A stretch of DNA of 44,545 nt, taken from the sequence record OL362272.1; one strand, given 5' to 3'. Of the stretch, positions 14,173 to 39,730 are shown piece by piece. The position numbers and the translations under genes were made by a program. The notes under the pieces are model-generated. The model worked only from the letters and a program-made list of their open reading frames with translations, did not search any database and was not told where the DNA came from. Position 1 is the first letter of the stretch, and every line of letters starts with the position of its first letter. Origin of the DNA: Escherichia phage 6948.

Positions 14173-14188
14173 GTCTCACATGTGAGAC
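14173..14188. repeat. conserved palindrome GTCTCACATGTGAGAC (copy 1)
   Basis: Perfect 16-bp palindrome, 3 nt upstream of promoter 14191. Confidence 0.8.
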
Positions 14189-14190
14189 TT

Positions 14191-14213
14191 ATTTACCGGA
14201 CACTATAGGATAG
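14191..14213 (+). promoter_or_regulatory. phage-RNAP promoter downstream of the RNAP gene (first of a tandem pair)
   Basis: ATTTACCGGACACTATAGGATAG. Confidence 0.7.
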
Positions 14214-14353
14214 CCGTCGGAGACGGGAAAGAAAGGGAAGATAAAGGATATAAAGGAAGTAATAGGTATTAAAGGTTATATAGGTTATCTAGGAATACCT
14301 ATTACCTTCTTCCTTCCTCTTATTACCACTTAGAGGAAGGGCAGATCTAGGTT

Positions 14354-14369
14354 GTCTCACATGTGAGAC
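14354..14369. repeat. conserved palindrome GTCTCACATGTGAGAC (copy 2)
   Basis: Identical 16-mer, 5 nt upstream of promoter 14375. Confidence 0.8.
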
Positions 14370-14374
14370 TTCGT

Positions 14375-14397
14375 ATTTACCGGACAGTATAGATAAG
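14375..14397 (+). promoter_or_regulatory. variant phage-RNAP promoter (second of the tandem pair)
   Basis: ATTTACCGGACAGTATAGATAAG; C-to-G change at -5. Confidence 0.45.
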
Positions 14398-14422
14398 ACT
14401 AACTTACTTTGGAGATTTAACC

Positions 14423-14551
14423 ATGCGTAACTTTGAGAAGATGACCCGTAAAGCTAACCGTTTTGACATGGAAGAAGGGCAGACGAAAGGCAAGAAGCTG
14501 AATAAACCTGTCCGTGACCGTGCATCTAAACGCGCAGCATGGGAGTTCTGA
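14423..14551 (+). CDS. gp1.1-like small basic protein
   Basis: 42 aa MRNFEKMTRKANRF...LNKPVRDRASKRAAWEF; same length, start and position after RNAP as T7 gene 1.1. Confidence 0.6.
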   Translation: MRNFEKMTRKANRFDMEEGQTKGKKLNKPVRDRASKRAAWEF

Positions 14552-14554
14552 GTT

Positions 14555-14773
14555 ATGGCTAAATACAGAATCAAGACCTGTTTAAATAGTCACGGGCAAG
14601 AGTTCTACGTAGTGCAACGTAAAGTATTAGGCTTAATATGGGTCACTTGTATGATGCCTATTGGCTATACTGATACAGAGGCTATCTTCTGCACCGAAAG
14701 GGATGCAAAGAAGTTTATCTCTAAGCGTAGAAAAGCTGACTCTTACCAACCTAGAATTATTAAGGTGAACTAA
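14555..14773 (+). CDS. hypothetical protein
   Basis: 72 aa ORF, GGAG upstream; stop overlaps the primase/helicase start. Confidence 0.5.
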   Translation: MAKYRIKTCLNSHGQEFYVVQRKVLGLIWVTCMMPIGYTDTEAIFCTERDAKKFISKRRKADSYQPRIIKVN

Positions 14774-16761
14774 TGGCTATTATTAATAACATCCCGTGCC
14801 CTGCCTGCCAGAAGAATGGGCACGATAAATCAGGCAATCATCTCATGATATTTGATGATGGTGCTGGCTATTGTAACCGTGGTCACTTCCATGATAATGG
14901 GAAGCCCTATTACCATAAGCCAGAGGGTGGTATCGAGATAACCGAATTGCCTATTACTGGCAATATCAAATATACACCTTCTCAATTCAAAGAAATGGAG
15001 AAGGAAGGGAAGATAAGCGACCCTAAGCTACGCGCCATCGCTCTTGGTGGTATGCGTATGAAAGACCGTTGGGAGGTCATGAATGAGCAAGAAAGGGCAG
15101 ACCAAGAAGCAGAGTGGAAACTTGATGTTGAATGGTTCCTCACGCTTAAGCGTAAGAACCTTGTTTCCCGACACATTCGCGGCGACATTTGCGCATTGTA
15201 TGATGTACGTGTCGGACACGATGAAGAGGGTAGAGTCTCGCGGCATTACTATCCACGCTTCGAGAAAGGTGAGCTAGTAGGAGCTAAGTGTCGTACCTTA
15301 CCTAAAGATTTCAAGTTTGGACACTTAGGTAAACTCTTTGGTATGCAAGATCTTTTCGGTATGAATACTTTGTCTCACGTGTTAGACAAGGGGAGACGAA
15401 AGGATTGCTTGCTTATTGTAGGCGGTGAACTTGATGCACTAGCAGCGCAGCAGATGCTCCTTGATTCTGCCAAAGGTACTAAGTGGGAAGGTCAGCCATA
15501 CCATGTATGGTCTGTCAATAAAGGTGAGTCTTGCCTTGAAGAGATAGTGCAAAACCGTGAGCACATAGCCCAATTCAAGAAGATTATATGGGGCTTTGAT
15601 GGCGACGAGGTGGGGCAGAAGCAGAACCAACAAGCTGCTCGCCTGTTTCCTGGCAAATCCTACATCCTCGAATATCCATCTGGTTGCAAAGATGCTAACA
15701 AGGCATTGATGGCTGGCAAGGCTAAAGAGTTTGTAGATGCATGGTTTAATGCCAAGTCATCTGATGAAGTCTTTGGTAGCCAGATTAAATCTATCGCATC
15801 TCAAAGGGATAAGCTCAAGGCTGCACGTCCAGAGCAAGGACTATCATGGCCTTGGCCTAAGCTGAACAAGGTAACGCTAGGTATTCGTAAGAACCAACTT
15901 ATCATTGTAGGCGCAGGCTCTGGTGTAGGTAAGACTGAGTTCCTTCGTGAAGTAGTTAAGCACCTCATTGAAGAACACGGTGAATCTGTAGGCATCATTT
16001 CTACAGAAGACCCGATGGTCAAGGTGTCCCGTGCTTTTATCGGCAAGTGGATTGATAAGCGTATTGAGTTACCGCCAACCAACGACCCGAAAGAAGATGG
16101 ATACCGTGAGGTGTTCGACTACACCGAAGAAGAGGCTAACGCCGCCATTGATTATGTAGCTGATACAGGTAAGCTGTTTGTAGCTGACCTAGAGGGTGAC
16201 TATTCGATGGAAAAGGTAGAGCAAACTTGCCTAGAGTTTGAGGCTATGGGCATTTCTAATATCATCATTGATAACTTAACGGGGATTAAATTAGATGAGC
16301 GTGCTTTTGGTGGGAAGGTTGGTGCACTTGATGAATGCGTCAAGCGGATTGGTACTATCAAAGACCGACACCCGGTTACTATATTCCTTGTATCACACCT
16401 TACACGTCCTCCGGCAAACCGTACCCAACACGAAGAAGGTGGCGAGGTTATCCTTTCTGACTTCCGAGGTTCAGGCGCTATCGGATTCTGGGCATCTTAC
16501 GCCTTGGGGATTGAGCGTAATACAAGAGCTGAAACGCTTGACGAAAGGACTACCACGTACATCTCATGTGTCAAAGACCGCGACCAAGGTATCTGGACTG
16601 GAACCAAGGTCATGCTTAAGGGTGACATTCAAACCGGACGTTTAATGGAACCACAAGCCCGTACTAAGTCATTTGACACCGGCGAAGCAAGGCAACAAGA
16701 AGTACCGGATTTACCGGACACTATAGAAGAGACTAACTTCGATGAAGAAAGTGAGTTCTGA
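14773..16761 (+). CDS. bifunctional DNA primase/helicase (gp4-like)
   Basis: 662 aa; N-terminal zinc ribbon CPACQ...CNRGH, central TOPRIM-like region, Walker A GAGSGVGKT, Walker B IIIDNL; acidic C-terminus ending ...DEESEF. Confidence 0.9.
   Translation: MAIINNIPCPACQKNGHDKSGNHLMIFDDGAGYCNRGHFHDNGKPYYHKPEGGIEITELPITGNIKYTPSQFKEMEKEGKISDPKLRAIALGGMRMKDRWEVMNEQERADQEAEWKLDVEWFLTLKRKNLVSRHIRGDICALYDVRVGHDEEGRVSRHYYPRFEKGELVGAKCRTLPKDFKFGHLGKLFGMQDLFGMNTLSHVLDKGRRKDCLLIVGGELDALAAQQMLLDSAKGTKWEGQPYHVWSVNKGESCLEEIVQNREHIAQFKKIIWGFDGDEVGQKQNQQAARLFPGKSYILEYPSGCKDANKALMAGKAKEFVDAWFNAKSSDEVFGSQIKSIASQRDKLKAARPEQGLSWPWPKLNKVTLGIRKNQLIIVGAGSGVGKTEFLREVVKHLIEEHGESVGIISTEDPMVKVSRAFIGKWIDKRIELPPTNDPKEDGYREVFDYTEEEANAAIDYVADTGKLFVADLEGDYSMEKVEQTCLEFEAMGISNIIIDNLTGIKLDERAFGGKVGALDECVKRIGTIKDRHPVTIFLVSHLTRPPANRTQHEEGGEVILSDFRGSGAIGFWASYALGIERNTRAETLDERTTTYISCVKDRDQGIWTGTKVMLKGDIQTGRLMEPQARTKSFDTGEARQQEVPDLPDTIEETNFDEESEF
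16709..16731 (+). promoter_or_regulatory. phage-RNAP promoter inside the 3' end of the primase/helicase gene
   Basis: ATTTACCGGACACTATAGAAGAG. Confidence 0.7.
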
Positions 16762-16781
16762 TTAGTGTATTTATCAGGGCT

Positions 16782-16799
16782 TGTCTCACACGTGAGACA
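16782..16799. repeat. conserved palindrome family, TGTCTCACACGTGAGACA (copy 3)
   Basis: 7-bp arms TGTCTCA/TGAGACA with CACG centre; flanks extend the stem (GGGCTTG...CAGGCTC); after primase/helicase. Confidence 0.75.
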
Positions 16800-16837
16800 G
16801 GCTCTTATTAAGTACATTAAATAACTGGAGATTGATT

Positions 16838-17521
16838 ATGTATAAATTAGTATTGAATGTAGGTGATTATGTTCGTAACATCAATGTAACCTCACGTAGA
16901 TATCGTTGCCGTGGTACTGTGACTAATGTAAGTGAAAACAGCTACTATGTAGAATACAGTAATGGTATTAGACAGGCTTATCAAAAGGAATCAGCACATA
17001 ACTACCTTGAGAAGATTGGAGAGGTAAGCAATCAATGTAAGTGCGTACACGATGAGATTTGCGATAAGTGTGCCCGCCAGCTGCATAAAATGCTATTATA
17101 CCCTCTTCGCTATGGTGCTGGTGTTCAAACATTAGCAGAGGCATATGGCAAAAGTAAGACCACACTCAAGAAAGAGCGCCGCAATGTAATCACTGGTAAG
17201 ACTCAAAGTGAAATGATTAAACTATGTGGCACTGCATTAGGTGTTACGCAGTTTAATACTCGTTCATTGGGTAAATCCACAGGGCAAGCTATGGTAAAGA
17301 TTGGCGAAGCCATGATGCATCCAAATGTACCTGTACGAATCATGGATGTTGACCATGCAATCACAGAACACGGTACGCAACGACGTGTAATTAATAAGCA
17401 TTTTGCCGACACTATAGAAGGTATTATTCGTAAGCAAGAGTTGAAGGGTCTTCACATCTTAAATGGTGAAGAATTACTGTACCTACCTATCGTTACTGAA
17501 GAAACCTACGTGAATATCTAA
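16838..17521 (+). CDS. hypothetical protein
   Basis: 227 aa from ATG 16838 (GGAG 9 nt upstream); Cys cluster CKCVHDEICDKC. Confidence 0.5.
   Translation: MYKLVLNVGDYVRNINVTSRRYRCRGTVTNVSENSYYVEYSNGIRQAYQKESAHNYLEKIGEVSNQCKCVHDEICDKCARQLHKMLLYPLRYGAGVQTLAEAYGKSKTTLKKERRNVITGKTQSEMIKLCGTALGVTQFNTRSLGKSTGQAMVKIGEAMMHPNVPVRIMDVDHAITEHGTQRRVINKHFADTIEGIIRKQELKGLHILNGEELLYLPIVTEETYVNI
17400..17422 (+). promoter_or_regulatory. variant phage-RNAP promoter
   Basis: ATTTTGCCGACACTATAGAAGGT; upstream half diverges. Confidence 0.4.
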
Positions 17522-17531
17522 GGAGTTAATC

Positions 17532-17750
17532 ATGACTAAGGTATTAATTTATATGCGTGGACCTCATAAATGCTATGCAGTTGTAGCACCAAATGGCGTT
17601 AAGCCTTATCGTACTTCAAAAAGATTGGCACTAATAGGTGCTAGTAGTAGTGCAAGTTTCCAAATGGAACTTTTTGGTCATTGGACTGAAAGGCAATTCC
17701 GTGAGGATTTTAAAGTCATTGGCAGTTTCATGGTGAAATATGCAGAATAA
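17532..17750 (+). CDS. hypothetical protein
   Basis: 72 aa, RBS AAGGAG. Confidence 0.4.
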   Translation: MTKVLIYMRGPHKCYAVVAPNGVKPYRTSKRLALIGASSSASFQMELFGHWTERQFREDFKVIGSFMVKYAE

Positions 17751-17916
17751 ACATAGTCTTAGAATGTTCGATGGTCATGAAGACCTGCAAGCCAAGATTA
17801 CTAACCAAGCCTTCCTGTTCGCACAGTTAACTATGGCTGAGGCCAAGAAGAATAGTCTCACTCGTGAACAGGTTATCAAGGAAAGTGAAGTGAAACGTAA
17901 GATTCGCAGTCGATAA
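17740..17916 (+). CDS. small hypothetical protein
   Basis: 58 aa; followed directly by a hairpin plus T-tract. Confidence 0.25.
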   Translation: MQNKHSLRMFDGHEDLQAKITNQAFLFAQLTMAEAKKNSLTREQVIKESEVKRKIRSR

Positions 17917-17925
17917 GTCAAGGGT

Positions 17926-17943
17926 TGTCTCACGTGTGAGACA
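17926..17943. repeat. conserved palindrome family, TGTCTCACGTGTGAGACA (copy 4)
   Basis: Extended stem GGTTGTCTCA/TGAGACAGCC followed by TTTT, so also terminator-like. Confidence 0.75.
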
Positions 17944-17973
17944 GCCTTTTATCATGTTGATTGGAGGTGCATT

Positions 17974-18081
17974 ATGCCACGTGATTATGATTCTGATTGG
18001 GACTACTATGACTCAATGAATCCAAAACCAGAACGTTCAGATGATTACTACGAAACAGAGGCAATGTATGAAAACTATTAA
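17974..18081 (+). CDS. small acidic hypothetical protein
   Basis: 35 aa, RBS GGAGG; Asp/Tyr-rich. Confidence 0.2.
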   Translation: MPRDYDSDWDYYDSMNPKPERSDDYYETEAMYENY

Positions 18082-18286
18082 AGTCAGTAAGGTTTGCTCT
18101 TGCGGTAAAGGTTATCGCAGTCGTATTGATGGTAAGTGTGGACATTGTAGGTCTAAGAAAGAGGCTGCTTTGTTTGACAAGTACCACAATGAATTAGCCT
18201 ATAACTACCCACATCTAACACCTAATTCTTTATTAGGGCTTGGTTATAGGGCTAAATACTTTGGAGCAATCTATGAAATCAATTGA
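18068..18286 (+). CDS. small zinc-ribbon-like protein
   Basis: 72 aa from ATG 18068; CxCG...CGHC motif. Confidence 0.4.
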   Translation: MKTIKVSKVCSCGKGYRSRIDGKCGHCRSKKEAALFDKYHNELAYNYPHLTPNSLLGLGYRAKYFGAIYEIN

Positions 18287-20819
18287 TTGGAAGAAGGAGG
18301 CAGAAGGTCGTATCCTCGTGATGGATGCGGAAGCTAAAGGACTCCTTGACGCTATCCGATATGGACACCGTGAAGATGTGCATATCATTTGCTGCATGGA
18401 TTTGCTTACTACCGAGGAGTTTCTCTTCTTTGACCCGTATGAGATGCGTGACCCTGAAGCAAGAGAACGCCTGAAGGAATGGGAAGGTCATCAAGACGGA
18501 ACCTTGGTTGATGGTGTTAACTTCCTGAAGCATTGTGAAGCTATTGTGTCACAGAACTTCCTAGGGTATGACGGACTTCTCTTTGAGAAAGCATTCCCTG
18601 ATATTTGGAAAGGCTTTAACTATACCGAGAAGCGCGGTAAGGGCAGACTCCGTGCTGACCTGTGTCCGGTGCGAGTCATGGATACGCTGGTGATGAGTCG
18701 CCTGTTAAACCCCGATAGACGCCTTCCTCCGCAAGCATATGCCAAAGGTATGGGTAACGTCGCCCCTCACTCAATTGAGGCGCACGGCATCCGTATAGGT
18801 CGCTATAAACCGGAGAACGAGGACTGGTCTAAACTAACTGACCACATGGTTCACCGTGTACGTGAGGACGTGGCGATTGGTCGTGACTTGTTCCTCTGGC
18901 TCTTTAACGGGGAATGGATGGAGCACAAACGCCGTGGCGTGAATAAACGCACGGGCCTAGGCATTGAGACAGCCTTCCACATGGAGTCCATTGTGGCGCT
19001 GGAGATGAGCCGTCAGGCCGAGCGCGGGTTCCGTCTGGACATCGACAAGGCTTTGGCCCGATGCGAAGAATTGGACGCTAAGATTGATGAGACAGTCGCA
19101 GCGTTCCGCCCTCACATGCCTATGCGTATCAAGTCTAAACCTTTTAAACCGGAAGAAAAGAATGAAGTATGCCAACGCGCAAATGAGTATGGAGCTAGCA
19201 ACAATATACCTACTGTCCTTGACCCCTCACACTTTCTTCATGCCGAGAGACGAGGAGATCGCAAGACAGTATGGAGTGTCACTACTAAGTCTGGTGATTG
19301 GTCGGCTAGTGTCAAGAAAGACTTTCCTCACCTTAGAGGAAACCGTAATGACACGCCAAGCATCAAGTGGATTGGCGCTTACTCGCCTGTTACTTTCGAA
19401 GAGATTCCCTTGGGTAACAGGGATACAGTTAAGCAAGTGCTCTATGAGTATGGATGGAAAGGTGTTGAATTTAACGATACCGAGCAAGCTCATCTCGATG
19501 AGCACGGAGTGTTACCAAAACCTTGGAGTGGTAAGATAAATGAAAAGTCCCTCACTTTATGGCAAGAAAGAGCCGCACGTGAAGGTAAAACAGTCCCTGA
19601 TTGGTGCTTGGGTATCGCTGCATGGTACATACTCGTATCCCGTCGTGGTCAGATACTCAACCGTGGTGACGTTGAAGCCTTCAACGAGAAGGGAACGTGG
19701 CCCTCGCAGGCTGGTGTACGAAAGTGTCGCGGCCTTGTACCTGTAGCATTCAACAAGGAGCTAGGAATCAATGCGCAGCAATACTACGAGAGGTACGGAT
19801 GTTGGCCTACGTCTGACAAAGATGACGGAGAGTGGCGTGTTCCAGCTGTTGCTATTAGTATTGGCACTTCTACGTTCCGTATGCGTCATCGTAACGTGGT
19901 TAATATTCCTGCCCGTGGCTTGTATCCTTTACGTGATTTATTCATAGCAGGGAAAGGCAAGCTAATCCTTGGTTGTGACGGTGCAGGTCTTGAACTGCGT
20001 GTCCTGTCTCACTTCATGAATGACCCTGAGTACCAAGAGATTGTACTGCACGGTGATATTCATACGCATAACCAGATGAAGGCTGGTCTTCCTAAGCGTG
20101 ATATGGCGAAGACGTTTATATACGCCTTCCTCTATGGTTCTGGTATAGCCAACCTTGCAGCAGTCTGCGGTGTTACTGAGGAAGAAATGAAGGAAGTTGT
20201 GGCAAGATTCGAGATTGAACTACCGTCTCTTGCACGTCTTCGTGAGAATGTTATCGCACAAGGTAACAAGTTTGGCTACCTGCAAGCACCTGACGGGCAT
20301 TGGGGTCGCATCCGCATGTCTGGTGGTGAACTTAAAGAGCACACGATGCTTAACGTATTACTCCAGATGACTGGCTCTTTGTGTATGAAATATGCATTAG
20401 TCAAGGCATTTGCAGTAATGCGCAAGGAAGGTGTAGCTTTGGATGCTATGGGAAATCCTTGTGGTGTGGCTAACGTGCATGATGAAATCCAGATGGAAGT
20501 TCCTGAAGAGGAGGTCTTGTATCTTAACTACGACCTACCTTTCACCTTAGATGGGTTCGAAACAGAGAAGGCTGCTGTGAAAGCAGTTTTCGATGCAGAG
20601 GAGAAACGTGTTCATGTGGATTCTGAAGGACGTATGTGGTCTGCTGCAAACCTCGTTAGCGTTGATGCTGATGCTGGTGTATTGCATTGCCAGCGCCGTT
20701 ATCACCGTGCAGGTCATATCATTGCCGACGCCATGACTTGGGCAGGGCAGTATCTGAAGATGCGTTGCCCGATGGCAGGAGAATATAAGATTGGCGCAAG
20801 CTGGAAGGAAACACACTGA
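18273..20819 (+). CDS. DNA polymerase, family A
   Basis: 848 aa from ATG 18273 (GGAG upstream); motif A DGAGLELRV, motif B KTFIYAFLYGSG, motif C VHDEIQ; N-terminal exonuclease-like acidic residues. Confidence 0.9.
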   Translation: MKSIDWKKEAEGRILVMDAEAKGLLDAIRYGHREDVHIICCMDLLTTEEFLFFDPYEMRDPEARERLKEWEGHQDGTLVDGVNFLKHCEAIVSQNFLGYDGLLFEKAFPDIWKGFNYTEKRGKGRLRADLCPVRVMDTLVMSRLLNPDRRLPPQAYAKGMGNVAPHSIEAHGIRIGRYKPENEDWSKLTDHMVHRVREDVAIGRDLFLWLFNGEWMEHKRRGVNKRTGLGIETAFHMESIVALEMSRQAERGFRLDIDKALARCEELDAKIDETVAAFRPHMPMRIKSKPFKPEEKNEVCQRANEYGASNNIPTVLDPSHFLHAERRGDRKTVWSVTTKSGDWSASVKKDFPHLRGNRNDTPSIKWIGAYSPVTFEEIPLGNRDTVKQVLYEYGWKGVEFNDTEQAHLDEHGVLPKPWSGKINEKSLTLWQERAAREGKTVPDWCLGIAAWYILVSRRGQILNRGDVEAFNEKGTWPSQAGVRKCRGLVPVAFNKELGINAQQYYERYGCWPTSDKDDGEWRVPAVAISIGTSTFRMRHRNVVNIPARGLYPLRDLFIAGKGKLILGCDGAGLELRVLSHFMNDPEYQEIVLHGDIHTHNQMKAGLPKRDMAKTFIYAFLYGSGIANLAAVCGVTEEEMKEVVARFEIELPSLARLRENVIAQGNKFGYLQAPDGHWGRIRMSGGELKEHTMLNVLLQMTGSLCMKYALVKAFAVMRKEGVALDAMGNPCGVANVHDEIQMEVPEEEVLYLNYDLPFTLDGFETEKAAVKAVFDAEEKRVHVDSEGRMWSAANLVSVDADAGVLHCQRRYHRAGHIIADAMTWAGQYLKMRCPMAGEYKIGASWKETH

Positions 20820-20935
20820 TGGATAGGCTTGACATTATTTGCCTATTCTTCACTCTCTTTCTTACACTCCTTATGCTTGCTTGTTATGGGAGTATGAGAC
20901 TAGATATACCTGATGAAGAAGAGGGTTACGACTAA
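20819..20935 (+). CDS. small membrane protein
   Basis: 38 aa, ATGA overlap with the DNAP stop; hydrophobic helix. Confidence 0.25.
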   Translation: MDRLDIICLFFTLFLTLLMLACYGSMRLDIPDEEEGYD

Positions 20936-21033
20936 TGCAAACTGCTTTTATTATTCTTGGTATCATATTATTTATGGTAGTACTCTGGGCCTTCTCTGGC
21001 ATTGACCCAGATTGTGATGGTAACTACGACTGA
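20935..21033 (+). CDS. small membrane protein
   Basis: 32 aa, TAATG overlap; hydrophobic helix FIILGIILFMVVLWAF. Confidence 0.25.
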   Translation: MQTAFIILGIILFMVVLWAFSGIDPDCDGNYD

Positions 21034-21092
21034 GTTATACTCAAGGTCACTTACGAGTGGCCTTTATGAATAACTTAACTGGAGGAAATATA

Positions 21093-21650
21093 ATGAATGA
21101 ACTGAACACTAAGATGCTCAAGAAAGTTTATAATCTTGTATATAGTATCACGGGCCTACAATTCTACCCTGTAGGCGGTGCGGTTCGTGACACCCTGTAC
21201 GGATTAACACCTAAAGACTATGATATGGTGTTGCCTGTAGGGTCTATGGCAGATTCTCAGGCGCACGAAATCATGGAAAATATCTCTGAAGAGATGGCAA
21301 TTATGGGATTTAGTACCAAACTCTACCAATCATACGGTATCAATTTAGGTTATGAAATCAACCCTACCTCTTTTCAGGCTATGTTCCTTAGCTGCATGAA
21401 AGTGCAGATGCGTAATTGCCAACTTGATTTGCTTCTTTCTAAGGCTGAAACCATCCAAGATCATGTACGTAAGCACGATTGCAATATGAATATGGTGTGG
21501 TTCGATGGTAAAGATATCAAGTGGGAGCACGGCGGTGTTACTCCTTTCGTTCCTGTGTTAGAGTTCAACCCTGACGGATGTGATCGTCGCATTGCTTACA
21601 TGGACAAGAAGCGCCATGAACTTATCCGTCACAAATTAATGCATCTTTGA
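21093..21650 (+). CDS. polymerase-beta-superfamily nucleotidyltransferase, CCA-adding-enzyme/poly(A)-polymerase head-domain-like
   Basis: 185 aa from ATG 21093 (GGAGG 8 nt upstream); YPVGGAVRDTLYGLTPKDYDMVLPVG matches the GGxVRD...DxD signature of class II tRNA nucleotidyltransferases. Confidence 0.6.
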   Translation: MNELNTKMLKKVYNLVYSITGLQFYPVGGAVRDTLYGLTPKDYDMVLPVGSMADSQAHEIMENISEEMAIMGFSTKLYQSYGINLGYEINPTSFQAMFLSCMKVQMRNCQLDLLLSKAETIQDHVRKHDCNMNMVWFDGKDIKWEHGGVTPFVPVLEFNPDGCDRRIAYMDKKRHELIRHKLMHL

Positions 21651-21672
21651 TTTACCGGACACTATAGAAGGA
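21650..21672 (+). promoter_or_regulatory. phage-RNAP promoter
   Basis: ATTTACCGGACACTATAGAAGGA. Confidence 0.75.
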
Positions 21673-23226: not shown

Positions 23227-23227
23227 A

Positions 23228-23243
23228 GTCTCACGTGTGAGAC
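23228..23243. repeat. conserved palindrome GTCTCACGTGTGAGAC (copy 5)
   Basis: Perfect 16-mer immediately after the 23226 stop and upstream of promoter 23259. Confidence 0.8.
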
Positions 23244-23258
23244 AAATCGGTGTCCGGT

Positions 23259-23281
23259 ATTTACTGGACACTATAGAAGAG
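23259..23281 (+). promoter_or_regulatory. phage-RNAP promoter upstream of the 123-aa acidic protein
   Basis: ATTTACTGGACACTATAGAAGAG. Confidence 0.75.
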
Positions 23282-31544: not shown

Positions 31545-31550
31545 TTCAGT

Positions 31551-32832: not shown

Positions 32833-32840
32833 TACCTATG

Positions 32841-32875
32841 CCCTATCTACCTTGCGTAGGTAGGGTTCTTTTTGT
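32841..32875 (+). terminator. intrinsic terminator after the capsid gene
   Basis: 10-bp stem CCCTATCTAC / GTAGGTAGGG, loop CTTGC, then TTCTTTTTG; near-identical architecture to the 23710 terminator. Confidence 0.6.
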
Positions 32876-32886
32876 TAGGAGGATTC

Positions 32887-33624
32887 ATGCCTGTTATTAA
32901 ACAACAAAGTTACACTGGCTATACTGTCTCAGATGTAGCCTTTCAAGTGATTGATAGTAAGCTGGAGGCTGTTAACCTTTGTATGCGAGCCATTGGTCGT
33001 GAGGGTGTGGATTCTCTCGACTCAGGCGACCTTGATGCTGAAGATGCTAGCAAAATGATTGATATCGTCTCCCAACGTTTCCAATACAACAAAGGCGGTG
33101 GCTGGTGGTTCAATCGTGAACCTAACTGGCAGCTTGCACCAGACACGAACGGTGAGATTAACTTGCCTAATAACTGCCTAGCTGTATTGCAGTGCTACGC
33201 ATTGGGTGAGAAGAAAGTGCCTATGACTATGCGTGCAGGTAAGCTCTACTCTACTTGGAGTCACACCTTTGATATGCGTAAGCATGTTAATGCTAATGGT
33301 ATGATTCGTCTTACCTTACTCACCTTACTACCCTACGAGCATTTACCTACAAGTGTAATGCAGGCTATTGCCTATCAAGCTGCTGTAGAGTTTATTGTGT
33401 CTAAGGATGCAGATCAGACTAAGCTAGCCACTGCGCAGCAGATAGCCACTCAGCTTCTTATGGATGTACAATCTGAGCAAATGTCACAGAAGCGATTAAA
33501 CATGCTGGTACATAACCCCACTCAGCGTCAGTTTGGTATCATGGCTGGTGGCTCTCAGAATGTGCCTGCTTACTCTCATTCACCTTATGAGAGTTGGGCG
33601 CTCCGTCCGTGGGAGGATCGTTAA
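32887..33624 (+). CDS. tail tubular protein A (gp11-like)
   Basis: 245 aa from ATG 32887 (AGGAGG); position after capsid. Confidence 0.7.
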   Translation: MPVIKQQSYTGYTVSDVAFQVIDSKLEAVNLCMRAIGREGVDSLDSGDLDAEDASKMIDIVSQRFQYNKGGGWWFNREPNWQLAPDTNGEINLPNNCLAVLQCYALGEKKVPMTMRAGKLYSTWSHTFDMRKHVNANGMIRLTLLTLLPYEHLPTSVMQAIAYQAAVEFIVSKDADQTKLATAQQIATQLLMDVQSEQMSQKRLNMLVHNPTQRQFGIMAGGSQNVPAYSHSPYESWALRPWEDR

Positions 33625-36026
33625 TGGAAGTACAAGGTTCATTAGGTAGACAAATCCAAGGGATTAGCCAGCAGCCGCCAGCGGTACGCTTGGATGGTCA
33701 GTGCACAGCTATGGTTAATATGATACCTGATGTAGTGAATGGTACTCAATCACGAATGGGTACAACTCATATTGCAAAGATACTTGATGCTGGGACTGAT
33801 GACATGGCTATTCATCATTATCGCAGAGGTGATGGTGATGAAGAGTATTTCTTCACGTTGAAGAAAGGACAAGTTCCTGAGATATTTGATAAGTATGGGC
33901 GCAAATGTAATGTGACTTCACAAGATGCACCTATGACCTACCTCTCTGAGGTTGTTAATCCAAGGGAAGATGTACAATTCATGACGATAGCTGATGTTAC
34001 TTTCATGCTTAATCGTAGGAAAGTAGTTAAAGCTAGTAACAGGAAGTCACCTAAAGTTGGAAACAAAGCCATTGTGTTTTGTGCGTATGGTCAATATGGT
34101 ACATCTTATTCCATTGTAATTAATGGGACCAACGCTGCTAGTTTTAAAACACCGGATGGTGGAAGTGCAGACCATGTTGAACAAATTCGAACTGAACGTA
34201 TCACTTCTGAATTGTACTCTAAGTTGCAGCAATGGAGCGGTGTGAGTGACTATGAAATACAAAGAGACGGTACTAGTATATTTATCGAGAGACGGGATGG
34301 TGCTAGCTTTACAATAACAACCACCGATGGTGCAAAAGGTAAGGACTTAGTGGCTATCAAGAATAAAGTTAGCTCTACTGACCTACTCCCTTCTCGTGCG
34401 CCTGCTGGTTATAAAGTACAAGTGTGGCCTACTGGCAGCAAACCTGAGTCTCGTTACTGGCTGCAAGCTGAGCCTAAAGAGGGAAACCTTGTGTCTTGGA
34501 AAGAAACAATAGCTGCTGATGTATTACTTGGGTTTGATAAAGGCACAATGCCTTACATTATTGAACGTACAGATATCATCAACGGCATAGCTCAATTCAA
34601 GATAAGACAAGGTGATTGGGAAGATCGTAAAGTAGGGGATGACTTGACTAACCCTATGCCCTCTTTTATTGATGAGGAAGTACCCCAGACAATAGGTGGA
34701 ATGTTCATGGTGCAGAACCGCCTATGCTTTACAGCAGGTGAAGCGGTTATTGCTTCTCGTACATCCTACTTCTTCGATTTCTTTCGTTATACGGTTATCT
34801 CTGCATTGGCAACTGACCCCTTTGATATTTTCTCAGATGCTAGTGAAGTCTACCAGCTAAAACATGCAGTGACCTTAGATGGCGCTACCGTGTTGTTCTC
34901 TGATAAGTCACAATTCATACTGCCAGGCGATAAGCCTTTAGAGAAGTCAAATGCACTGCTTAAGCCTGTTACAACATTTGAAGTGAACAATAAAGTGAAG
35001 CCAGTAGTAACTGGTGAATCGGTAATGTTTGCCACTAATGATGGTTCTTACTCTGGTGTACGAGAGTTCTATACAGACTCTTATAGTGACACTAAGAAGG
35101 CACAAGCAATCACAAGTCATGTGAATAAACTCATCGAAGGTAACATTACCAACATGGCAGCAAGCACCAATGTCAACAGGTTACTTGTCACTACCGATAA
35201 GTATCGTAACATAATCTACTGCTACGATTGGTTATGGCAAGGAACAGACCGTGTACAATCAGCATGGCATGTATGGAAGTGGCCTATAGGTACAAAGGTG
35301 CGAGGTATGTTTTATTCTGGTGAATTACTTTACCTGCTCCTTGAGCGAGGAGATGGCGTGTATCTGGAGAAGATGGACATGGGTGATGCACTAACCTATG
35401 GTTTGAATGACCGCATCAGAATGGATAGGCAAGCAGAGTTAGTCTTCAAGCATTTCAAAGCAGAAGATGAATGGGTATCTGAGCCGCTCCCTTGGGTTCC
35501 TACTAACCCAGAACTTTTAGATTGCATCTTAATCGAGGGTTGGGATTCATATATTGGCGGCTCTTTCTTATTCAAGTACAACCCTAGTGACAATACTTTG
35601 TCTACAACCTTTGATATGTATGATGACAGCCATGTAAAAGCGAAGGTTATTGTTGGTCAGATTTACCCTCAAGAGTTTGAACCTACGCCTGTGGTTATCA
35701 GAGACAATCAAGACCGTGTATCCTACATTGATGTACCAGTTGTAGGATTGGTTCACCTTAATCTTGACATGTACCCCGATTTCTCCGTAGAAGTTAAGAA
35801 TGTGAAGAGTGGTAAAGTACGTAGAGTATTAGCGTCAAACCGTATAGGTGGTGCTCTCAATAATACAGTAGGCTATGTTGAACCGAGAGAAGGTGTCTTC
35901 AGATTTCCACTGAGAGCTAAGAGCACGGATGTTGTTTATCGTATTATTGTAGAGTCACCTCACACATTCCAGCTTCGTGATATTGAGTGGGAAGGGAGCT
36001 ACAATCCAACCAAAAGGAGGGTCTAA
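33624..36026 (+). CDS. tail tubular protein B (gp12-like)
   Basis: 800 aa; N-terminal QGISQQP segment resembles the T7 gp12 N-terminus; size and position. Confidence 0.8.
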   Translation: MEVQGSLGRQIQGISQQPPAVRLDGQCTAMVNMIPDVVNGTQSRMGTTHIAKILDAGTDDMAIHHYRRGDGDEEYFFTLKKGQVPEIFDKYGRKCNVTSQDAPMTYLSEVVNPREDVQFMTIADVTFMLNRRKVVKASNRKSPKVGNKAIVFCAYGQYGTSYSIVINGTNAASFKTPDGGSADHVEQIRTERITSELYSKLQQWSGVSDYEIQRDGTSIFIERRDGASFTITTTDGAKGKDLVAIKNKVSSTDLLPSRAPAGYKVQVWPTGSKPESRYWLQAEPKEGNLVSWKETIAADVLLGFDKGTMPYIIERTDIINGIAQFKIRQGDWEDRKVGDDLTNPMPSFIDEEVPQTIGGMFMVQNRLCFTAGEAVIASRTSYFFDFFRYTVISALATDPFDIFSDASEVYQLKHAVTLDGATVLFSDKSQFILPGDKPLEKSNALLKPVTTFEVNNKVKPVVTGESVMFATNDGSYSGVREFYTDSYSDTKKAQAITSHVNKLIEGNITNMAASTNVNRLLVTTDKYRNIIYCYDWLWQGTDRVQSAWHVWKWPIGTKVRGMFYSGELLYLLLERGDGVYLEKMDMGDALTYGLNDRIRMDRQAELVFKHFKAEDEWVSEPLPWVPTNPELLDCILIEGWDSYIGGSFLFKYNPSDNTLSTTFDMYDDSHVKAKVIVGQIYPQEFEPTPVVIRDNQDRVSYIDVPVVGLVHLNLDMYPDFSVEVKNVKSGKVRRVLASNRIGGALNNTVGYVEPREGVFRFPLRAKSTDVVYRIIVESPHTFQLRDIEWEGSYNPTKRRV

Positions 36027-36748
36027 TGGCTATAGGTTCAGCCGTTATGGCTGGTATGTCTTCTATTGGTAGCATGTTTGCAGGCAGTGGTGCAGCAGCC
36101 GCTGCTGGAGGTGCTGCCGCAGGTGGCGGAGGTTTGCTAGGTTCACTAGGTGGATTCCTAAGTGGCTCTACTGCTGGTTTCTCTAATGCTGGCCTTCTTG
36201 GTGCTGGCCTTCAAGGGTTAGGCTTGATTGGTGATCTATTTGGTGGAAGTGATGAAGCCAAGGCGATGAAGAAAGCACAAGAAGAGCAATGGCGGCAGCA
36301 GCTTATTGCTACACAAGAGGCGTACAAGACAGTGGCAGACGCAGAACGTTCTGCTGCTAAACAATATCATGCAGATGCAATCAGTAATCAGGCTTCACTG
36401 CTACAGCAGCGAGCACAGGTTGCATTACTTGCTGGGGCTACTGGTACTGGTGGTAATTCTGTGTCCTCTATGCTTAATGACTTAGCAGCAGATGGCGGCA
36501 GGAACCAGAGTACTATCATTGATAACTATGAGAATCAGAAGATTAATTTCACCAACCAGCTTAAGTCTATCCAACGTGGTGGTCAGATGCAGATGCGTGA
36601 GTTTAAGAAGCCTTCTGCTATGAATACCTTGGTTAAAGGTATTCCAAGTCTGGCATCTGCCTATGTAACTGGTAGTAAGTCTGGCAAGGCATTGGGTAAA
36701 GCCTTAACTGATTCTCGCACATATTCATCTGGAACAAGAGGTATTTAA
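36026..36748 (+). CDS. internal virion protein A (Gly/Ala-rich)
   Basis: 240 aa, RBS AAAGGAGGG; Gly/Ala-rich N-terminus; first of three ejection-protein genes. Confidence 0.6.
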   Translation: MAIGSAVMAGMSSIGSMFAGSGAAAAAGGAAAGGGGLLGSLGGFLSGSTAGFSNAGLLGAGLQGLGLIGDLFGGSDEAKAMKKAQEEQWRQQLIATQEAYKTVADAERSAAKQYHADAISNQASLLQQRAQVALLAGATGTGGNSVSSMLNDLAADGGRNQSTIIDNYENQKINFTNQLKSIQRGGQMQMREFKKPSAMNTLVKGIPSLASAYVTGSKSGKALGKALTDSRTYSSGTRGI

Positions 36749-39696
36749 TGGCAATTGAGCGACAAGCAGTACAAGGTCTGCCACAAGTGCAGGCCACTTC
36801 TCCTAATGTCATGACCTTTGCACCTCAACAAGTGGGAGGTGTGGAGGCTGGCGTGGCTTCTACCTCCGGTAGTAGGTTTATCGAAGACCTTATTCGTGCA
36901 GCAAGCAGCGTGGCTGATGTTACCACTGGTATCCTTAATCAGAAGATTGAGGAAGATAAGGTTGTTCAAATGGAACGGGCATATAACGGATTAATGCCTT
37001 CTGAGGATGCAACTCGTGGTGGCGCTCGTGCTAACATGCTTGTCAAAGCTCAACTGCTAGCTAATGATGAAGCAGCACGAATGAAAGACATGGCTACTCG
37101 TTTCCAAGGGACGGATGACGAGTGGACACAACTTATGGTTGACTCTCGTAATGAGATGCAGAATAAGCTGTTCCAGCAATACCCTGAGTTGCAAGGTGAC
37201 AAAGATACTATGCGTATGGTCACTAATGTCTTCCAAGAACAGCAGCCTCAGATTTGGGCTACACGAACCCAGCATAAACTTGACCGTGAACAAGCAGACC
37301 GTGAGGATACCTTTGACGGGCGAGTGGCTTCTACTTGGGATTCTAATATTGACCCTGAAGCCTCTGGCTATGCTTTACAGGAACGAATCCGCGAAGGTCT
37401 TACTCAAGGATTACTACCTGAACAGATGCACAAGAAGTTAGTCCAGCGAGCAATTTCACTTGCACAAGGCGGTGATGTTAGCATGGCTGAAGCCCTGAAG
37501 TATGTGAAGGACGATAAGGGTGTTTCTGTTTATGCTAAGAATCCACAGCTTATCACAGCCATCACTAGTGGTAATGCAGTTTGGGCTAGGAATAATGTAG
37601 CTGATGTAACTCGTATGTCTTTCGAAGTTAAAGAATCCTACCTTGCAGGTGATTTAACTGATGAAGAATTGTTGGAACGAGCACAGCACATTAATAATCT
37701 GACAGGTAACTCTGTCTTCTCTAATCCAGAGCTAGAGGCACTGATGCGCCAACGGGCTAAGCAGAATGCAGAGCTAGGTGCAATGCAGGATATGCGACGT
37801 GAGCTTTACTCCGACCGCCTGACTGGCTTCCAAGGTAAGACTGATAAAGAGAAGAAGGCTTACATTGATGTTATCAAACAGGATAGCCAACTTTATGCAG
37901 ACCAGCAAATCAAACAACGTGGCTTGGACCCTTACAGTCAAGAGGCTGAAGCTATTCGTGGTGCAGTGGAAGTGCAGCGCCTGCAATTCATGAACTCCAA
38001 AGGCTTAGTGGATGATACCTTTGAGTCTCGTATCAAAGCCATGGAATCTATGCTATCGCCTGAGCACTTTGCCAAGGGCGAACCACAGGAGTTGATGACT
38101 ATTCGCCAGTTGTGGGAACAGTTGCCAGAAGAGAGCCGAGGTGTCTTTGGTGACACGGTGAATGGCTACATGGATAACTACAACACTGCACTACAAATGG
38201 GAGAGACACCTTTGCAGGCTGCAAGGTTTGCGCGTGAAGCACAGCAGAAATTCTCTCGTACTGAGAAGGAAACCAAGAAGTTCAACTCAGCTATTGGAGA
38301 TGCACTGGATGAGGTATCTGGTGCTGGCTGGTTTGATGGTAAAACCGAAGTGTCAGACTTAGGTAAAGCTATTGCGGAAGAAGAGTTACGAGCTAAGGCC
38401 AATATGTTGTGGTCTAGTGGTATGCGTAACATGGATTCTATCAAGAAGGCTTTAATTACTTGGGGCAATAAACGCTACACTCAAACAGAGGATGCAAAGA
38501 CTTCCGGTGGCTATTTCATTAAAGGTGATTACACTTCTGCATCTGATATGCTTATGTCAGTTGGGAAAGGCGTAAACCCTACTGATGTACCTCTGGCGCT
38601 TGGTAGGTATGTAGAAACACAGATGCCAGAATTGAAGAAGGAGCTTCAAGAGTGGGAAACTAAAGATGATATATACATTGATTACAATGAACAGAAAGGT
38701 ACTTTCGTGATTCGTGCTGGTGCAGCAGGTCGCCCTCTTTCTGGAGTAATCCCTGTAACCTCTTTAGATACCACTTCACTACTAGATTCTGCCTATCAGA
38801 AGAAAGTAGAGGAACGAGATAAAGGCGAGTATGTTCACCCTTATCGTACAGATATTGGTGCACAAGAGCCTATGCCAGCTAAACCAACTGCCAAAGATAT
38901 TGGTAAATTTGGACTAGCTAACTTCCTCATGTCTTCTGCTTTTGCTTCTGGTGAGAATCTGCCTTCTAACTTCGAGATTAACTATCGAGGTAATATGCAA
39001 CAATTCTATGACAAGCTAGCTATGGATGAGAATAAAGATAAAGTTGGCTTTAATAAGGCAACTGGAACCTTTACTCCATATAAAGATGCCCACGGTGAGT
39101 CTATCGGTTACGGTCATTTCTTAACGGAAGAAGAGAAGCGAAACGGGTATATTAAGATTGGTGATGAACTAGTTCCCTATCGAGGGTCTATGTCTCAGCT
39201 TACAGAGAGCAAGGCTCGCGCTCTTATGGAGCAAGATGCCAAGAAGCATGTGCCTCCTACTCGTGACTGGAAGATTCCGTTTGACCAGATGCATCCTGCA
39301 CAGCAACGTGGCTTGATGGATTTAACCTACAATTTAGGTAAAGGTGGAATCCAGAACTCACCGCGTGCTCTTGCTGCATTCAAAGCTGGTAAGCTTACGG
39401 AAGGCTTTATCGAAATGCTGGGCACTGCATCAAGTGAAGGTAAGCGTATTCCTGGCCTACTGAAGCGACGCGCTGAGGCATACAATATGGCATCTGCTGG
39501 TGGTGTGCCTAAGATTACCGAAGTGGAGACTCGTGAAGATGGCTCCATGTGGGTTAGGTTTGGTGGACCTATGCCAGCAGGTTCTGTCTCGGCATGGACT
39601 CATAAACGTATTGGCGCGGATGGTTGGTATCAGGTTTATGAGGCTGCACCTACCAAGTTAGCTAAAGGTTCTAAGGTAGGTAAATTTAAGTTGTAG
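36748..39696 (+). CDS. internal virion protein B with lysozyme-like (T4-lysozyme-type) domain
   Basis: 982 aa; C-terminal region contains GYGHFLTEEEK...LMDLTYNLG resembling T4 lysozyme GIGHLLT...AINMVFQMG. Confidence 0.75.
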   Translation: MAIERQAVQGLPQVQATSPNVMTFAPQQVGGVEAGVASTSGSRFIEDLIRAASSVADVTTGILNQKIEEDKVVQMERAYNGLMPSEDATRGGARANMLVKAQLLANDEAARMKDMATRFQGTDDEWTQLMVDSRNEMQNKLFQQYPELQGDKDTMRMVTNVFQEQQPQIWATRTQHKLDREQADREDTFDGRVASTWDSNIDPEASGYALQERIREGLTQGLLPEQMHKKLVQRAISLAQGGDVSMAEALKYVKDDKGVSVYAKNPQLITAITSGNAVWARNNVADVTRMSFEVKESYLAGDLTDEELLERAQHINNLTGNSVFSNPELEALMRQRAKQNAELGAMQDMRRELYSDRLTGFQGKTDKEKKAYIDVIKQDSQLYADQQIKQRGLDPYSQEAEAIRGAVEVQRLQFMNSKGLVDDTFESRIKAMESMLSPEHFAKGEPQELMTIRQLWEQLPEESRGVFGDTVNGYMDNYNTALQMGETPLQAARFAREAQQKFSRTEKETKKFNSAIGDALDEVSGAGWFDGKTEVSDLGKAIAEEELRAKANMLWSSGMRNMDSIKKALITWGNKRYTQTEDAKTSGGYFIKGDYTSASDMLMSVGKGVNPTDVPLALGRYVETQMPELKKELQEWETKDDIYIDYNEQKGTFVIRAGAAGRPLSGVIPVTSLDTTSLLDSAYQKKVEERDKGEYVHPYRTDIGAQEPMPAKPTAKDIGKFGLANFLMSSAFASGENLPSNFEINYRGNMQQFYDKLAMDENKDKVGFNKATGTFTPYKDAHGESIGYGHFLTEEEKRNGYIKIGDELVPYRGSMSQLTESKARALMEQDAKKHVPPTRDWKIPFDQMHPAQQRGLMDLTYNLGKGGIQNSPRALAAFKAGKLTEGFIEMLGTASSEGKRIPGLLKRRAEAYNMASAGGVPKITEVETREDGSMWVRFGGPMPAGSVSAWTHKRIGADGWYQVYEAAPTKLAKGSKVGKFKL

Positions 39697-39712
39697 TATC
39701 TAACTCAAGGCT

Positions 39713-39730
39713 TGTCTCACATGTGAGACA
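39713..39730. repeat. conserved palindrome family, TGTCTCACATGTGAGACA (copy 6)
   Basis: Between internal virion proteins B and D; extended stem GGCTTG.../...CAGGTC, then TCTTTAT. Confidence 0.75.

What the first reader, a model, noticed from the sequence alone, without database searches (positions are those of the whole stretch)
14173..39730. Family of conserved 16-18 bp perfect palindromes (TGTCTCAC-N-GTGAGACA) at intergenic junctions
Six intergenic copies (14173, 14354, 16782, 17926, 23228, 39713) share identical 7-bp arms, which is more conservation than a hairpin needs structurally. Two one-mismatch copies also exist: 8631-8646 in the terminus/early-promoter region, and 15371-15391 inside the primase/helicase coding sequence. 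Several copies sit immediately upstream of phage promoters. This points to sequence-specific recognition, for example by a phage DNA-binding protein, as an RNA-processing site, or as a sequence-specific pause/terminator for the phage RNAP.
Basis: seen in the sequence. Interest (0 to 1): 0.65.

Follow-up and report, generated by a model that had tools for sequence, protein, structure and literature searches.

The report
Operator palindromes for phage HTH protein
The repeated 18-bp palindromes in this K1E/SP6-like phage genome are real. They are most likely docking sites for an uncharacterised early phage protein with a ParB/KorB-like DNA-binding domain, because that protein's DNA-reading helix changes in step with the palindrome sequence across many related phages.

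The parts
8630..8647 (.). Left-end copy AGTCTAACATGTGAGACA (arms GTCTAAC / GTGAGAC, an A.G non-pair)
   Evidence: It lies 33 nt upstream of the sigma70-like promoter 8681-8709. Orthologous copies exist in K1E 632, K1-5 559, SP6 493 and Era103 741.
8681..8709 (+). First early (host RNAP) promoter-like site, TTGACA-17-TACTAT
   Evidence: 10 of 12 consensus matches.
10485..11408 (+). Candidate reader gene: homologue of K1E gp6 / SP6 gp7. It has an N-terminal ParB/KorB-like HTH (recognition helix residues 61-74, KAQCYKLMSVARVF), a disordered linker, a coiled coil and a J-like C-terminal domain.
14172..14189 (.). Copy TGTCTCACATGTGAGACT abutting a phage promoter, downstream of the early terminator 14107-14130
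14190..14212 (+). Phage-RNAP promoter TATTTACCGGACACTATAGGATA
   Evidence: 1 mismatch to consensus.
14353..14370 (.). Copy TGTCTCACATGTGAGACT, 3 nt upstream of a phage promoter
14374..14396 (+). Phage-RNAP promoter variant TATTTACCGGACAGTATAGATAA
15371..15388 (.). Copy inside the primase/helicase gene, TGTCTCACGTGTTAGACA (codons TCT CAC GTG TTA GAC). The perfect form would create an in-frame TGA.
   Evidence: SP6 has TCT AAC GTG TTG GAC and K13 has TCC AAC GTG TTG GAC at the same codons.
16782..16799 (.). Copy TGTCTCACACGTGAGACA at the tip of a bipartite hairpin
16762..16820 (+). RNase III-type bipartite hairpin after the primase gene (12-bp lower stem, asymmetric internal loop, 13-bp upper stem)
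   Evidence: z -4.9; flank pairs contain G.U and covary.
17926..17943 (.). Copy TGTCTCACGTGTGAGACA at the tip of a bipartite hairpin
17907..17963 (+). RNase III-type bipartite hairpin with flanks AAGUCAAGGGU...GCCUUUUAUCAU
   Evidence: z -3.3.
23227..23244 (.). Copy AGTCTCACGTGTGAGACA, 13 nt upstream of a phage promoter
23258..23280 (+). Phage-RNAP promoter TATTTACTGGACACTATAGAAGA, itself part of a hairpin (23250-23275)
39713..39730 (.). Copy TGTCTCACATGTGAGACA at the tip of a bipartite hairpin between the 982-aa and 1065-aa virion protein genes
39691..39753 (+). RNase III-type bipartite hairpin. Its flanks AACUCAAGGCU...GGUCUUUAUGAU match the T7 R-site consensus ACUCAAGGUC...GGCCUUUAUGAU.
   Evidence: z -3.45.

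Best explanation
The palindromes are double-stranded-DNA operator sites for a phage-encoded early protein, the K1E gp6 / SP6 gp7 family (window 10485-11408). Each half-site (GTCTCAC here) would be read by one ParB/KorB-type helix-turn-helix domain. The two domains would be held together by a C-terminal coiled coil through a long flexible linker, which would explain why 2-nt and 3-nt spacers and imperfect half-sites are tolerated. The protein is made early from host-RNAP transcripts. It would occupy 7-8 sites concentrated in the left third of the genome: the left end, the non-coding region after the RNAP gene, several middle-gene junctions and one late junction. About a quarter of all such sites touch the upstream edge (-17 to -37) of phage-RNAP promoters. 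The most likely consequence is control of those promoters, and possibly of the origin-like region after the RNAP gene. The J-like C-terminal domain may recruit a partner. Three of the DNA sites are additionally embedded as the tips of T7-type RNase III processing hairpins in the mRNA, which is a second, separate layer. Shown by computation: the site family, its co-variation with the protein, and the fold. Inferred: binding itself, dimerisation, and every functional consequence.
Confidence: 0.65

Rival explanations
1. All copies act at the RNA level. The hairpin in the polycistronic mRNA would be recognised sequence-specifically by host RNase III or by a phage RNA-binding or RNA-cleaving protein, for processing, 3'-end protection or translational control.
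For: Three copies are the tips of bipartite hairpins (z -3.3 to -4.9). Their flanks pair only on the sense strand (G.U pairs; 38 of 163 sites across genomes), covary (11 of 19 pairs) and match T7 RNase III site flanks. In several relatives a copy sits 1-2 nt before a Shine-Dalgarno sequence. In SP6 and L140 most variant arms keep U.G pairing.
Against: About 125 of 163 sites have no flank pairing. A.G, C.U and C.A arm mismatches occur at conserved sites, including promoter-adjacent ones (L134 5734, L147 7170, L148 9453). The stem sequence is conserved while the loop varies, which is the opposite of typical RNA-protein sites. The left-end copy lies upstream of all promoters. Perfect copies inside the primase gene (SP6, K13) would destroy that mRNA if cleaved. 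T7 R sites, and the window's own palindrome-free R-like site at 21042, work with other tips. The host enzyme does not co-vary with the motif, whereas the phage HTH helix does.
Confidence: 0.12
2. The palindromes are dsDNA protein-binding sites, but the reader is a different protein, either another small phage protein or a host factor. The correlation with gp6-like would then be a lineage effect.
For: Several classes rest on one lineage. Distant contigs without gp6-like have analogous palindromes.
Against: K66N is the only class-discriminating column among 360. The trees show co-transitions that do not follow overall relatedness. Four blind predictions held. The hosts span Escherichia, Erwinia, Pseudomonas and Vibrio while sharing one motif, which argues against a host factor. 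No other conserved protein showed radical class-specific changes.
Confidence: 0.12
3. The palindromes act as single-stranded DNA hairpins or cruciforms in replication or recombination. They could be helicase/primase loading or priming signals, origin elements, or hot spots that mark module-exchange boundaries.
For: Two copies flank the non-coding region after the RNAP gene, where T7 has its primary origin, and that region also holds a long inverted repeat. One copy is at the left end. In SP6 the terminal copy has the opposite arm asymmetry to the others. Single foreign-type copies in K1-5, L134 and L135 show module exchange near these sites.
Against: Mismatched arms are tolerated. The required reader would still have to be sequence-specific. 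An 18-bp palindrome extrudes poorly. There is no support from the primase or DNAP sequences.
Confidence: 0.06
4. The palindromes are sequence-specific pause or termination signals for the phage RNA polymerase.
For: Copies 14173 and 14354 are flagged as weak terminator-like hairpins with T-rich tails. Many copies precede promoters.
Against: The T-rich tails are the promoters' own upstream AT-rich parts. Other copies have no U-run. Conserved copies lie inside the primase gene here and inside the RNAP gene in relatives. The motif stays constant while promoter specificity, and hence the RNAP, diverges widely.
Confidence: 0.03

Closest known systems
KorB and its OB operators on IncP (RK2) plasmids
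   Different: gp6-like has no ParB/Srx CTPase clamp domain and no ParA or KorA partner is seen. The promoters concerned belong to a single-subunit phage RNAP. The site is 18-19 bp with a variable 2-3 bp centre. The C-terminus is a coiled coil plus a J-like domain. The replicon is a strictly lytic phage.
ParB-parS and Noc-NBS (chromosomal ParB family)
   Different: The half-sites are separated by 2-3 bp instead of abutting. There is no N-terminal CTPase domain, no evidence of spreading, and no partition role is expected in a lytic phage.
T7 RNase III processing sites (R0.3, R0.5, R1.1, R4.7, R18.5)
   Same: Three window copies sit in hairpins with the same bipartite shape and the same flanks (ACUCAAGG...CCUUUAUGAU), at intergenic junctions.
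   Different: In T7 the hairpin tip is variable, whereas here the tip is always the palindrome. Five of the eight window copies have no RNase III-type flanks at all. The window also has one T7-type site with an ordinary tip (21042-21069).
Repeated regulatory palindromes of other genomes (bacterial REP elements, T4-type promoter-stem-loop cassettes)
   Same: A lineage-specific short palindrome recurs at intergenic junctions, often next to promoters. Module exchange occurs near the copies. This comparison is from general knowledge and was not tested here.
   Different: No transposase-like gene is present, copy number is low, and copies are positionally orthologous across genera rather than mobile.

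Membership tests
ParB/KorB-type DNA-binding proteins (candidate reader) | Helix-turn-helix DNA-binding domain of the ParB/KorB fold | tested here: met
   [not shown]
ParB/KorB-type DNA-binding proteins (candidate reader) | N-terminal ParB/Srx CTPase (clamp) domain | tested here: not met
   No ParBc Pfam hit even at E up to 10. The protein starts directly with the helical DNA-binding domain.
ParB-parS | 16-bp palindrome TGTTNCACGTGAAACA with abutting half-sites | tested here: not met
   Here the site is TGTCTCAC-N2/3-GTGAGACA. The half-site is similar (identical in L161/L167) but the spacing differs. The parS consensus is from PMC7383237.
ParB-parS | ParA partner and partition function | not tested
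   No ParA-like annotation appears in related annotated genomes, but a dedicated search was not made. Function is not testable here.
KorB-like global operator network | Many identical palindromic operators, some promoter-proximal and some distant or intragenic | tested here: met
   (32 of 134 sites lie 17-37 nt upstream of a promoter start; others lie in genes or hairpins).
KorB-like global operator network | Protein binds the operators and represses transcription | not testable with these tools
   Only co-variation supports binding. The direction of any regulation is unknown.
T7-type RNase III processing sites | Bipartite hairpin: lower stem, asymmetric internal loop, upper stem of about 10-13 bp | tested here: met
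   Met for 16782, 17926 and 39713 only. The dot-bracket pattern is identical to T7 R1.1.
T7-type RNase III processing sites | Conserved flanks CAAGG...CCUUUAUGA | tested here: met
   Present at 17926 and 39713. 16782 has CAGGGCU...GGCUCUUAUUAAG, a looser match.
T7-type RNase III processing sites | All members of the palindrome family have this architecture | tested here: not met
   8630, 14172, 14353, 15371 and 23227 have 0-3 flank pairs and z-scores of 0.0, -1.05, +0.8, -2.9 and -2.1. For 15371 the low energy comes from other pairings, not from an extension of the palindrome stem.
T7-type RNase III processing sites | Cleavage by host RNase III | not testable with these tools
   Needs RNA-end mapping in wild-type and rnc hosts.
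Intrinsic or T7 class I terminators | G+C-rich stem directly followed by a U-run | tested here: not met
   Only 14173 and 14354 are weakly flagged (6 pairs, 3 G-C), and their T-rich tails are promoter sequence. The other copies lack a U-run.
J-domain (C-terminal domain of the candidate reader) | J-domain helical fold | tested here: inconclusive
   [not shown]
J-domain (C-terminal domain of the candidate reader) | HPD motif between helices II and III | tested here: not met
   The loop reads GYGEGHEA. His is nearly invariant but there is no Pro-Asp.
Pfam DUF3102 | Sequence match above the gathering score | tested here: inconclusive
   Nerthus homologue: E 0.04, 14.6 bits against a cut-off of 24.4. 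Precomputed PF11300 hits on P0151 and P0202. BFVD structural hits to DUF3102 proteins.

The most novel reading that the evidence does not exclude
An uncharacterised early protein family of SP6-supergroup phages would form a genome-wide operator network in a strictly lytic phage. The protein combines a ParB/KorB-like HTH, a flexible linker, a coiled coil and a J-like domain. Its naturally diversified, readable recognition code has at least nine helix/half-site pairs. The network would gate single-subunit RNAP promoters and/or the replication origin region, and would recruit a host chaperone or another partner to phage DNA. It would be a missing regulator in a phage group that lacks the T7 lysozyme-type control.
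Probability: 0.3. Interest if true: 0.8.

Novelty: new variant of a known kind. Interest (0 to 1): 0.7.

Why it matters
SP6/K1E-like phages are workhorses: the source of SP6 RNA polymerase, and K1- and capsule-specific therapeutic phages. Yet beyond promoters and terminators almost nothing is known about how their gene expression and replication are organised. If the reading given here is right, a conserved gene of unknown function next to the RNA polymerase gene acquires a testable role, and a dispersed cis element acquires a reader. Nature would also have supplied a ready-made table of recognition-helix/half-site pairs (K-GTCTCAC, N-GTCCAAC, S,K-GTTTCAC and so on). That table could be used to study how DNA-binding specificity evolves, in parallel to the ParB/Noc work, or to build orthogonal operator/regulator pairs for T7-type expression systems. 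The analysis also shows that three of the sites double as RNase III-type processing hairpins, an example of two codes written on one sequence. For phage engineering, the sites and gene 6 should be treated as a functional unit when modules are swapped between lineages.

Tried and rejected
(1) SP6 'wobble' argument. All SP6 copies first seemed to read GTCTAAC/GTTGGAC, which pairs only as RNA. This collapsed when the relaxed search found perfect GTCCAAC copies in SP6 and right-arm variants (C.A in RNA) in relatives.

(2) Exact-pattern scan of IMG/VR for the motif. It gave mostly single chance hits in unrelated contigs and was useful only for a few 44-kb contigs.

(3) Rfam on the window: no family found.

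(4) First specificity-residue scan over 22 conserved proteins with few genomes. It gave only weak hints. It became decisive only with more genomes.

(5) Sequence searches for the candidate protein. Pfam at default threshold gave nothing. A PDB profile search gave only coiled-coil noise. The first homologue search returned only near-identical proteins.

(6) Literature. Nine full-text searches, including the motif sequences themselves, found no paper describing the palindrome or the protein. The original SP6/K1-5/K1E genome papers (Dobbins 2004, Scholl 2004, Stummeyer 2006) are not held, so prior mention of these hairpins there cannot be excluded. From memory, Dobbins et al. list seven putative rho-independent terminators in SP6, some of which may be these hairpins.

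(7) Host-factor sites recalled from memory (CRP, LexA, MatP matS, SlmA SBS). These were rejected on half-site orientation or spacing, and because hosts from Escherichia to Pseudomonas and Vibrio share one motif. They were not tested with tools.

(8) T7 primase GTC recognition. It was considered, but flanks are inconsistent and from memory SP6 primase uses a different triplet. Not pursued.

(9) Aeromonas phage Aer_P220 and contig L200 at first looked like gp6-positive, palindrome-negative exceptions. Allowing one mismatch revealed their own families.

(10) The afdb50 fold library was not available.
Full report
**What the window is.** Megablast places the window in the genus Vectrevirus (K1E/K1-5-like; SP6 supergroup, Molineuxvirinae), at 93-98% identity to many Escherichia phages. 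The window is circularly permuted. K1E coordinate 632 corresponds to window 8631, so the genome's left end lies near window 8000. All long ORFs are on the + strand.

**The observation.** TGTCTCACNNGTGAGACA with up to two mismatches occurs eight times: 8630, 14172, 14353, 15371, 16782, 17926, 23227 and 39713. The expectation from shuffles is 0.01.
- Six copies have perfect GTCTCAC/GTGAGAC arms.
- Isolated half-sites are not enriched.
- K1E and K1-5 carry the same copies at orthologous positions.

**The family is far wider and comes in variants.** The following was found in related phages.
- SP6, a Proteus phage and a Klebsiella phage have copies at the same genomic places but with arms GTCCAAC/GTTGGAC (GTCTAAC in many SP6 copies).
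- Erwinia phage Era103 keeps GTCTCAC.
- Pseudomonas phage Nerthus and Vibrio phage VEN keep GTCTCAC with a 3-nt spacer, in 8-11 copies each, although their RNAP is only about 42% identical.
- Sixty-four IMG/VR loci centred on the primase gene added further lineages with GTCTACA, GTTTCAC and GTAACAC arms.

The contexts recur in all lineages: the left genome end, the non-coding region after the RNAP gene, positions immediately upstream of phage promoters, positions just 5' of ribosome-binding sites, the tips of long hairpins, and inside genes.

**Two layers: three copies are also RNase III-type hairpins.** Folding 86-nt windows gave the following.
- 16782, 17926 and 39713 sit at the tip of bipartite hairpins: a lower stem, an asymmetric internal loop and a 13-bp upper stem (z -4.9, -3.3, -3.45).
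- The left-end copy and the promoter-adjacent copies at 14172 and 14353 show no extra structure (z 0.0, -1.05, +0.8). 23227 scores -2.1 and 15371 scores -2.9, but that energy comes from neighbouring hairpins (at 23227 the adjacent promoter hairpin), not from an extension of the palindrome stem.

The flanks of 39713 (AACUCAAGGCU...GGUCUUUAUGAU) and 17926 (AAGUCAAGGGU...GCCUUUUAUCAU) match the conserved flanks of T7 RNase III sites R0.3, R0.5, R1.1, R4.7 and R18.5 (ACUCAAGGUC...GGCCUUUAUGAU). The dot-bracket shape equals that of T7 R1.1.

Across 23 genomes and loci, 38 of 163 copies have 4-7 extra flank pairs. Those pairs always include G.U, so they form only on the sense strand. In an alignment of 21 such sites, 11 of 19 pairs show compensatory changes.

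The window also holds one T7-type site with an ordinary tip (21042-21069, CAAGGTCACTTACGAGTGGCCTTTATGA). This shows that the flanks, not the palindrome, carry the RNase III-like signature. Cleavage itself is inferred from homology.

**The conserved core behaves like a double-stranded DNA site.** Five features point this way.
- Stem bases are conserved over distances at which proteins are 40% identical, while the centre varies (RY, or A-S-T). Typical RNA elements show the reverse.
- The outermost positions are A or T on each side without needing to be complementary.
- Half-site combinations that cannot pair are found at conserved sites, including promoter-adjacent ones: GTCTAAC with GTGAGAC, GTCTCAC with GTTAGAC, and GTCCAAC with GTTAGAC.
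- The copy inside the primase gene follows the genome's variant. It reads TCT CAC GTG TTA GAC in K1E-type phages, where the perfect form would create an in-frame TGA. It reads TCT AAC GTG TTG GAC in SP6 and TCC AAC GTG TTG GAC in the Klebsiella phage, which is an H/N amino-acid change. A copy inside the RNAP gene is kept at one place in Era103, VEN, Nerthus, L140, L144, L145, L149, L169, L161 and L167, and is read in different frames in Era103 and VEN.
- The left-end copy lies upstream of all promoters.

**The candidate reader.** The protein encoded just upstream of the RNAP gene (window 10485-11408; K1E gp6, SP6 gp7, PHROG 4571 of unknown function) is shared by all these phages and absent from T7. 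Its N-terminal region contains a helix-turn-helix-like segment, DFLAYVESEFGIKKAQCYKLMSVARVF.

Tabulating this segment against the palindrome of each genome gave a one-to-one map.

| Residues 63, 65, 66 | Half-site |
|---|---|
| Q, Y, K | GTCTCAC |
| Q, Y/F, N (H in SP6) | GTCCAAC / GTCTAAC |
| Q, S, K | GTTTCAC |
| Y, Y, R | GTCTACA |
| Y, H, R | GTCTACC |
| H, Y, R | GTAACAC |
| W, Y, R | GTCTAGT |
| W, F, R | GT(G/A)TACT |
| M, Y, R | GTCTCCC |

- **Predictions.** Contigs chosen only by their helix sequence had the predicted palindrome. L197, L195 and L202 (26-47% identical proteins) have GTCTCAC, and L201 has GTCTACA.
- **Specificity column.** With 18 GTCTCAC-class and 7 GTCCAAC-class genomes, 360 columns are invariant in the first class: 30 in gp6-like, 181 in RNAP and 149 in primase. 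Only one differs in every member of the second class, gp6-like K66 to N.
- **Independence from phylogeny.** Neighbour-joining trees of gp6-like and of RNAP both place the K1E group (K66) inside the N66 clade, with K66 Era103 outside, and place L161 (S65) inside K-type relatives. The helix and the sites therefore changed together at least twice, independently of overall relatedness.
- **Chemistry.** The pairing of Lys with a C:G pair and Asn with an A:T pair at half-site position 5 is what the usual amino-acid/base preferences would suggest. This is an inference.

**Fold of the candidate.** An AlphaFold2 model (22-sequence alignment, mean pLDDT 71.9) has four parts:
- a helical N-domain (residues 3-122, pLDDT 82-90) with helices 46-57 and 61-74 forming the HTH;
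- a disordered stretch (126-207);
- a long helix (208-243);
- a compact C-domain (250-306, pLDDT 91-94).

**Relation to promoters.**
- The window has about 13 phage promoters, and three have a palindrome 0, 3 or 13 nt upstream.
- Over 19 genomes and loci, 32 of 134 sites have a promoter core whose start lies 17-37 nt downstream of the palindrome (5.3 expected), and only 2 have one upstream.
- The site therefore often touches the promoter's upstream edge.
- The left-end copy lies 33 nt upstream of the first sigma70-like early promoter. In Era103 and the Proteus phage the left-end copy abuts a phage promoter.

**Most likely mechanism.** The early protein binds the palindromes as a dimer, one HTH per half-site. 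Its flexible linker would accommodate both 2-nt and 3-nt spacers. It probably modulates the adjacent phage promoters and/or organises the origin-like region after the RNAP gene. The remaining sites, including those in genes and those doubling as RNase III hairpin tips, would be further docking points.

Shown by computation: the sites, the co-variation and the fold. Inferred: binding, dimerisation and every downstream effect. I put 0.65 on 'operators of gp6-like'. The rest is divided between an all-RNA role, another reader, single-stranded-DNA roles and RNAP pausing.

**What remains unexplained.**
- Why three sites always coincide with RNase III-type hairpin tips.
- Why SP6 and L140 keep the variant base mostly in the arm that preserves a G.U pair.
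- Why only a minority of promoters carry a site.
- What the J-like domain does.
- What reads the analogous palindromes of more distant T7-like contigs that lack this protein.

**Novelty.** No paper in the searchable library mentions the motif or the protein. The original genome papers could not be read, and they may have listed some of these hairpins as terminators. The link between the palindromes and a ParB/KorB-like early protein, together with its recognition code, appears to be new. It is a new variant of a known kind of system: dispersed operators read by a ParB-type HTH protein.

Noticed in passing
window 21042-21069: A canonical T7-type RNase III-like site (CAAGGTCACTTACGAGTGGCCTTTATGA) with an ordinary tip instead of the palindrome. 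It lies just upstream of a small nucleotidyltransferase gene (21057-21647; PolyA_pol head domain) that is only sporadically present in relatives, so it looks like an imported module.
   Followed up: partly
window 23250-23275: The phage promoter before the 123-aa gene is embedded in a 10-bp hairpin (GGTGTCCGG-TATTTA-CTGGACACT). The upstream arm covaries with the promoter sequence in SP6 (GTGTCTC/GGGACAC) and in the Proteus phage (GTGGTCT/AGACCAC). This resembles T7 R6.5/R13, where a promoter lies inside a processing hairpin.
   Followed up: partly
window 14100-14425: The 320-bp non-coding region after the RNAP gene holds the early terminator, two palindrome-plus-promoter units, and between them a long purine-rich/pyrimidine-rich inverted repeat (AAGGAAGTAATAGGTAT...ATACCTATTACCTTCTTCC). 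It occupies the same position as the T7 primary replication origin.
   Followed up: no
L003 (K1-5) 9570; L134 17412; L135 3222: Genomes of the GTCTCAC type each carry one single GTCCAAC-type copy at an otherwise orthologous site. This is evidence of module exchange between lineages with different site types.
   Followed up: no
L179 (5677, 6400, 7175, 8950, 14554, 21326) and L174 (4706, 5461, 6373, 7540, 8517, 9087, 14045, 17632): More distant T7-like metagenomic contigs without a gp6-like gene have their own intergenic palindrome families, mostly just upstream of ribosome-binding sites: TTATACC-N3-GGTATAA (six copies in L179) and AAGTATC-N2/3-GATACTT (eight copies in L174). Their reader is unknown.
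   Followed up: no
[not shown]
   Followed up: partly
L002 (SP6) and L140, all copies: The variant half-site GTCTAAC is almost always in the 5' arm on the coding strand (T.G compatible) and is reversed only in the left-end copy. In L147 and L148 the variant is in the 3' arm. Either strand-biased mutation or an added RNA constraint could explain this, and it remains unresolved.
   Followed up: partly
L200 4217, 7330, 14596, 14756, 15140: This lineage (helix KPMVYRLM) has mostly asymmetric sites (four of the five): GTCTCCC on one arm and GTATCCC on the other, with one copy inverted and one symmetric.
   Followed up: no
window 8560-8630: Just left of the left-end palindrome lies an array of short CCTAGC/ACCTA-type repeats (cctagccaacctagcctatcctagc), conserved in K1E, K1-5 and SP6. 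It is presumably part of the genome-end / concatemer-junction region.
   Followed up: no
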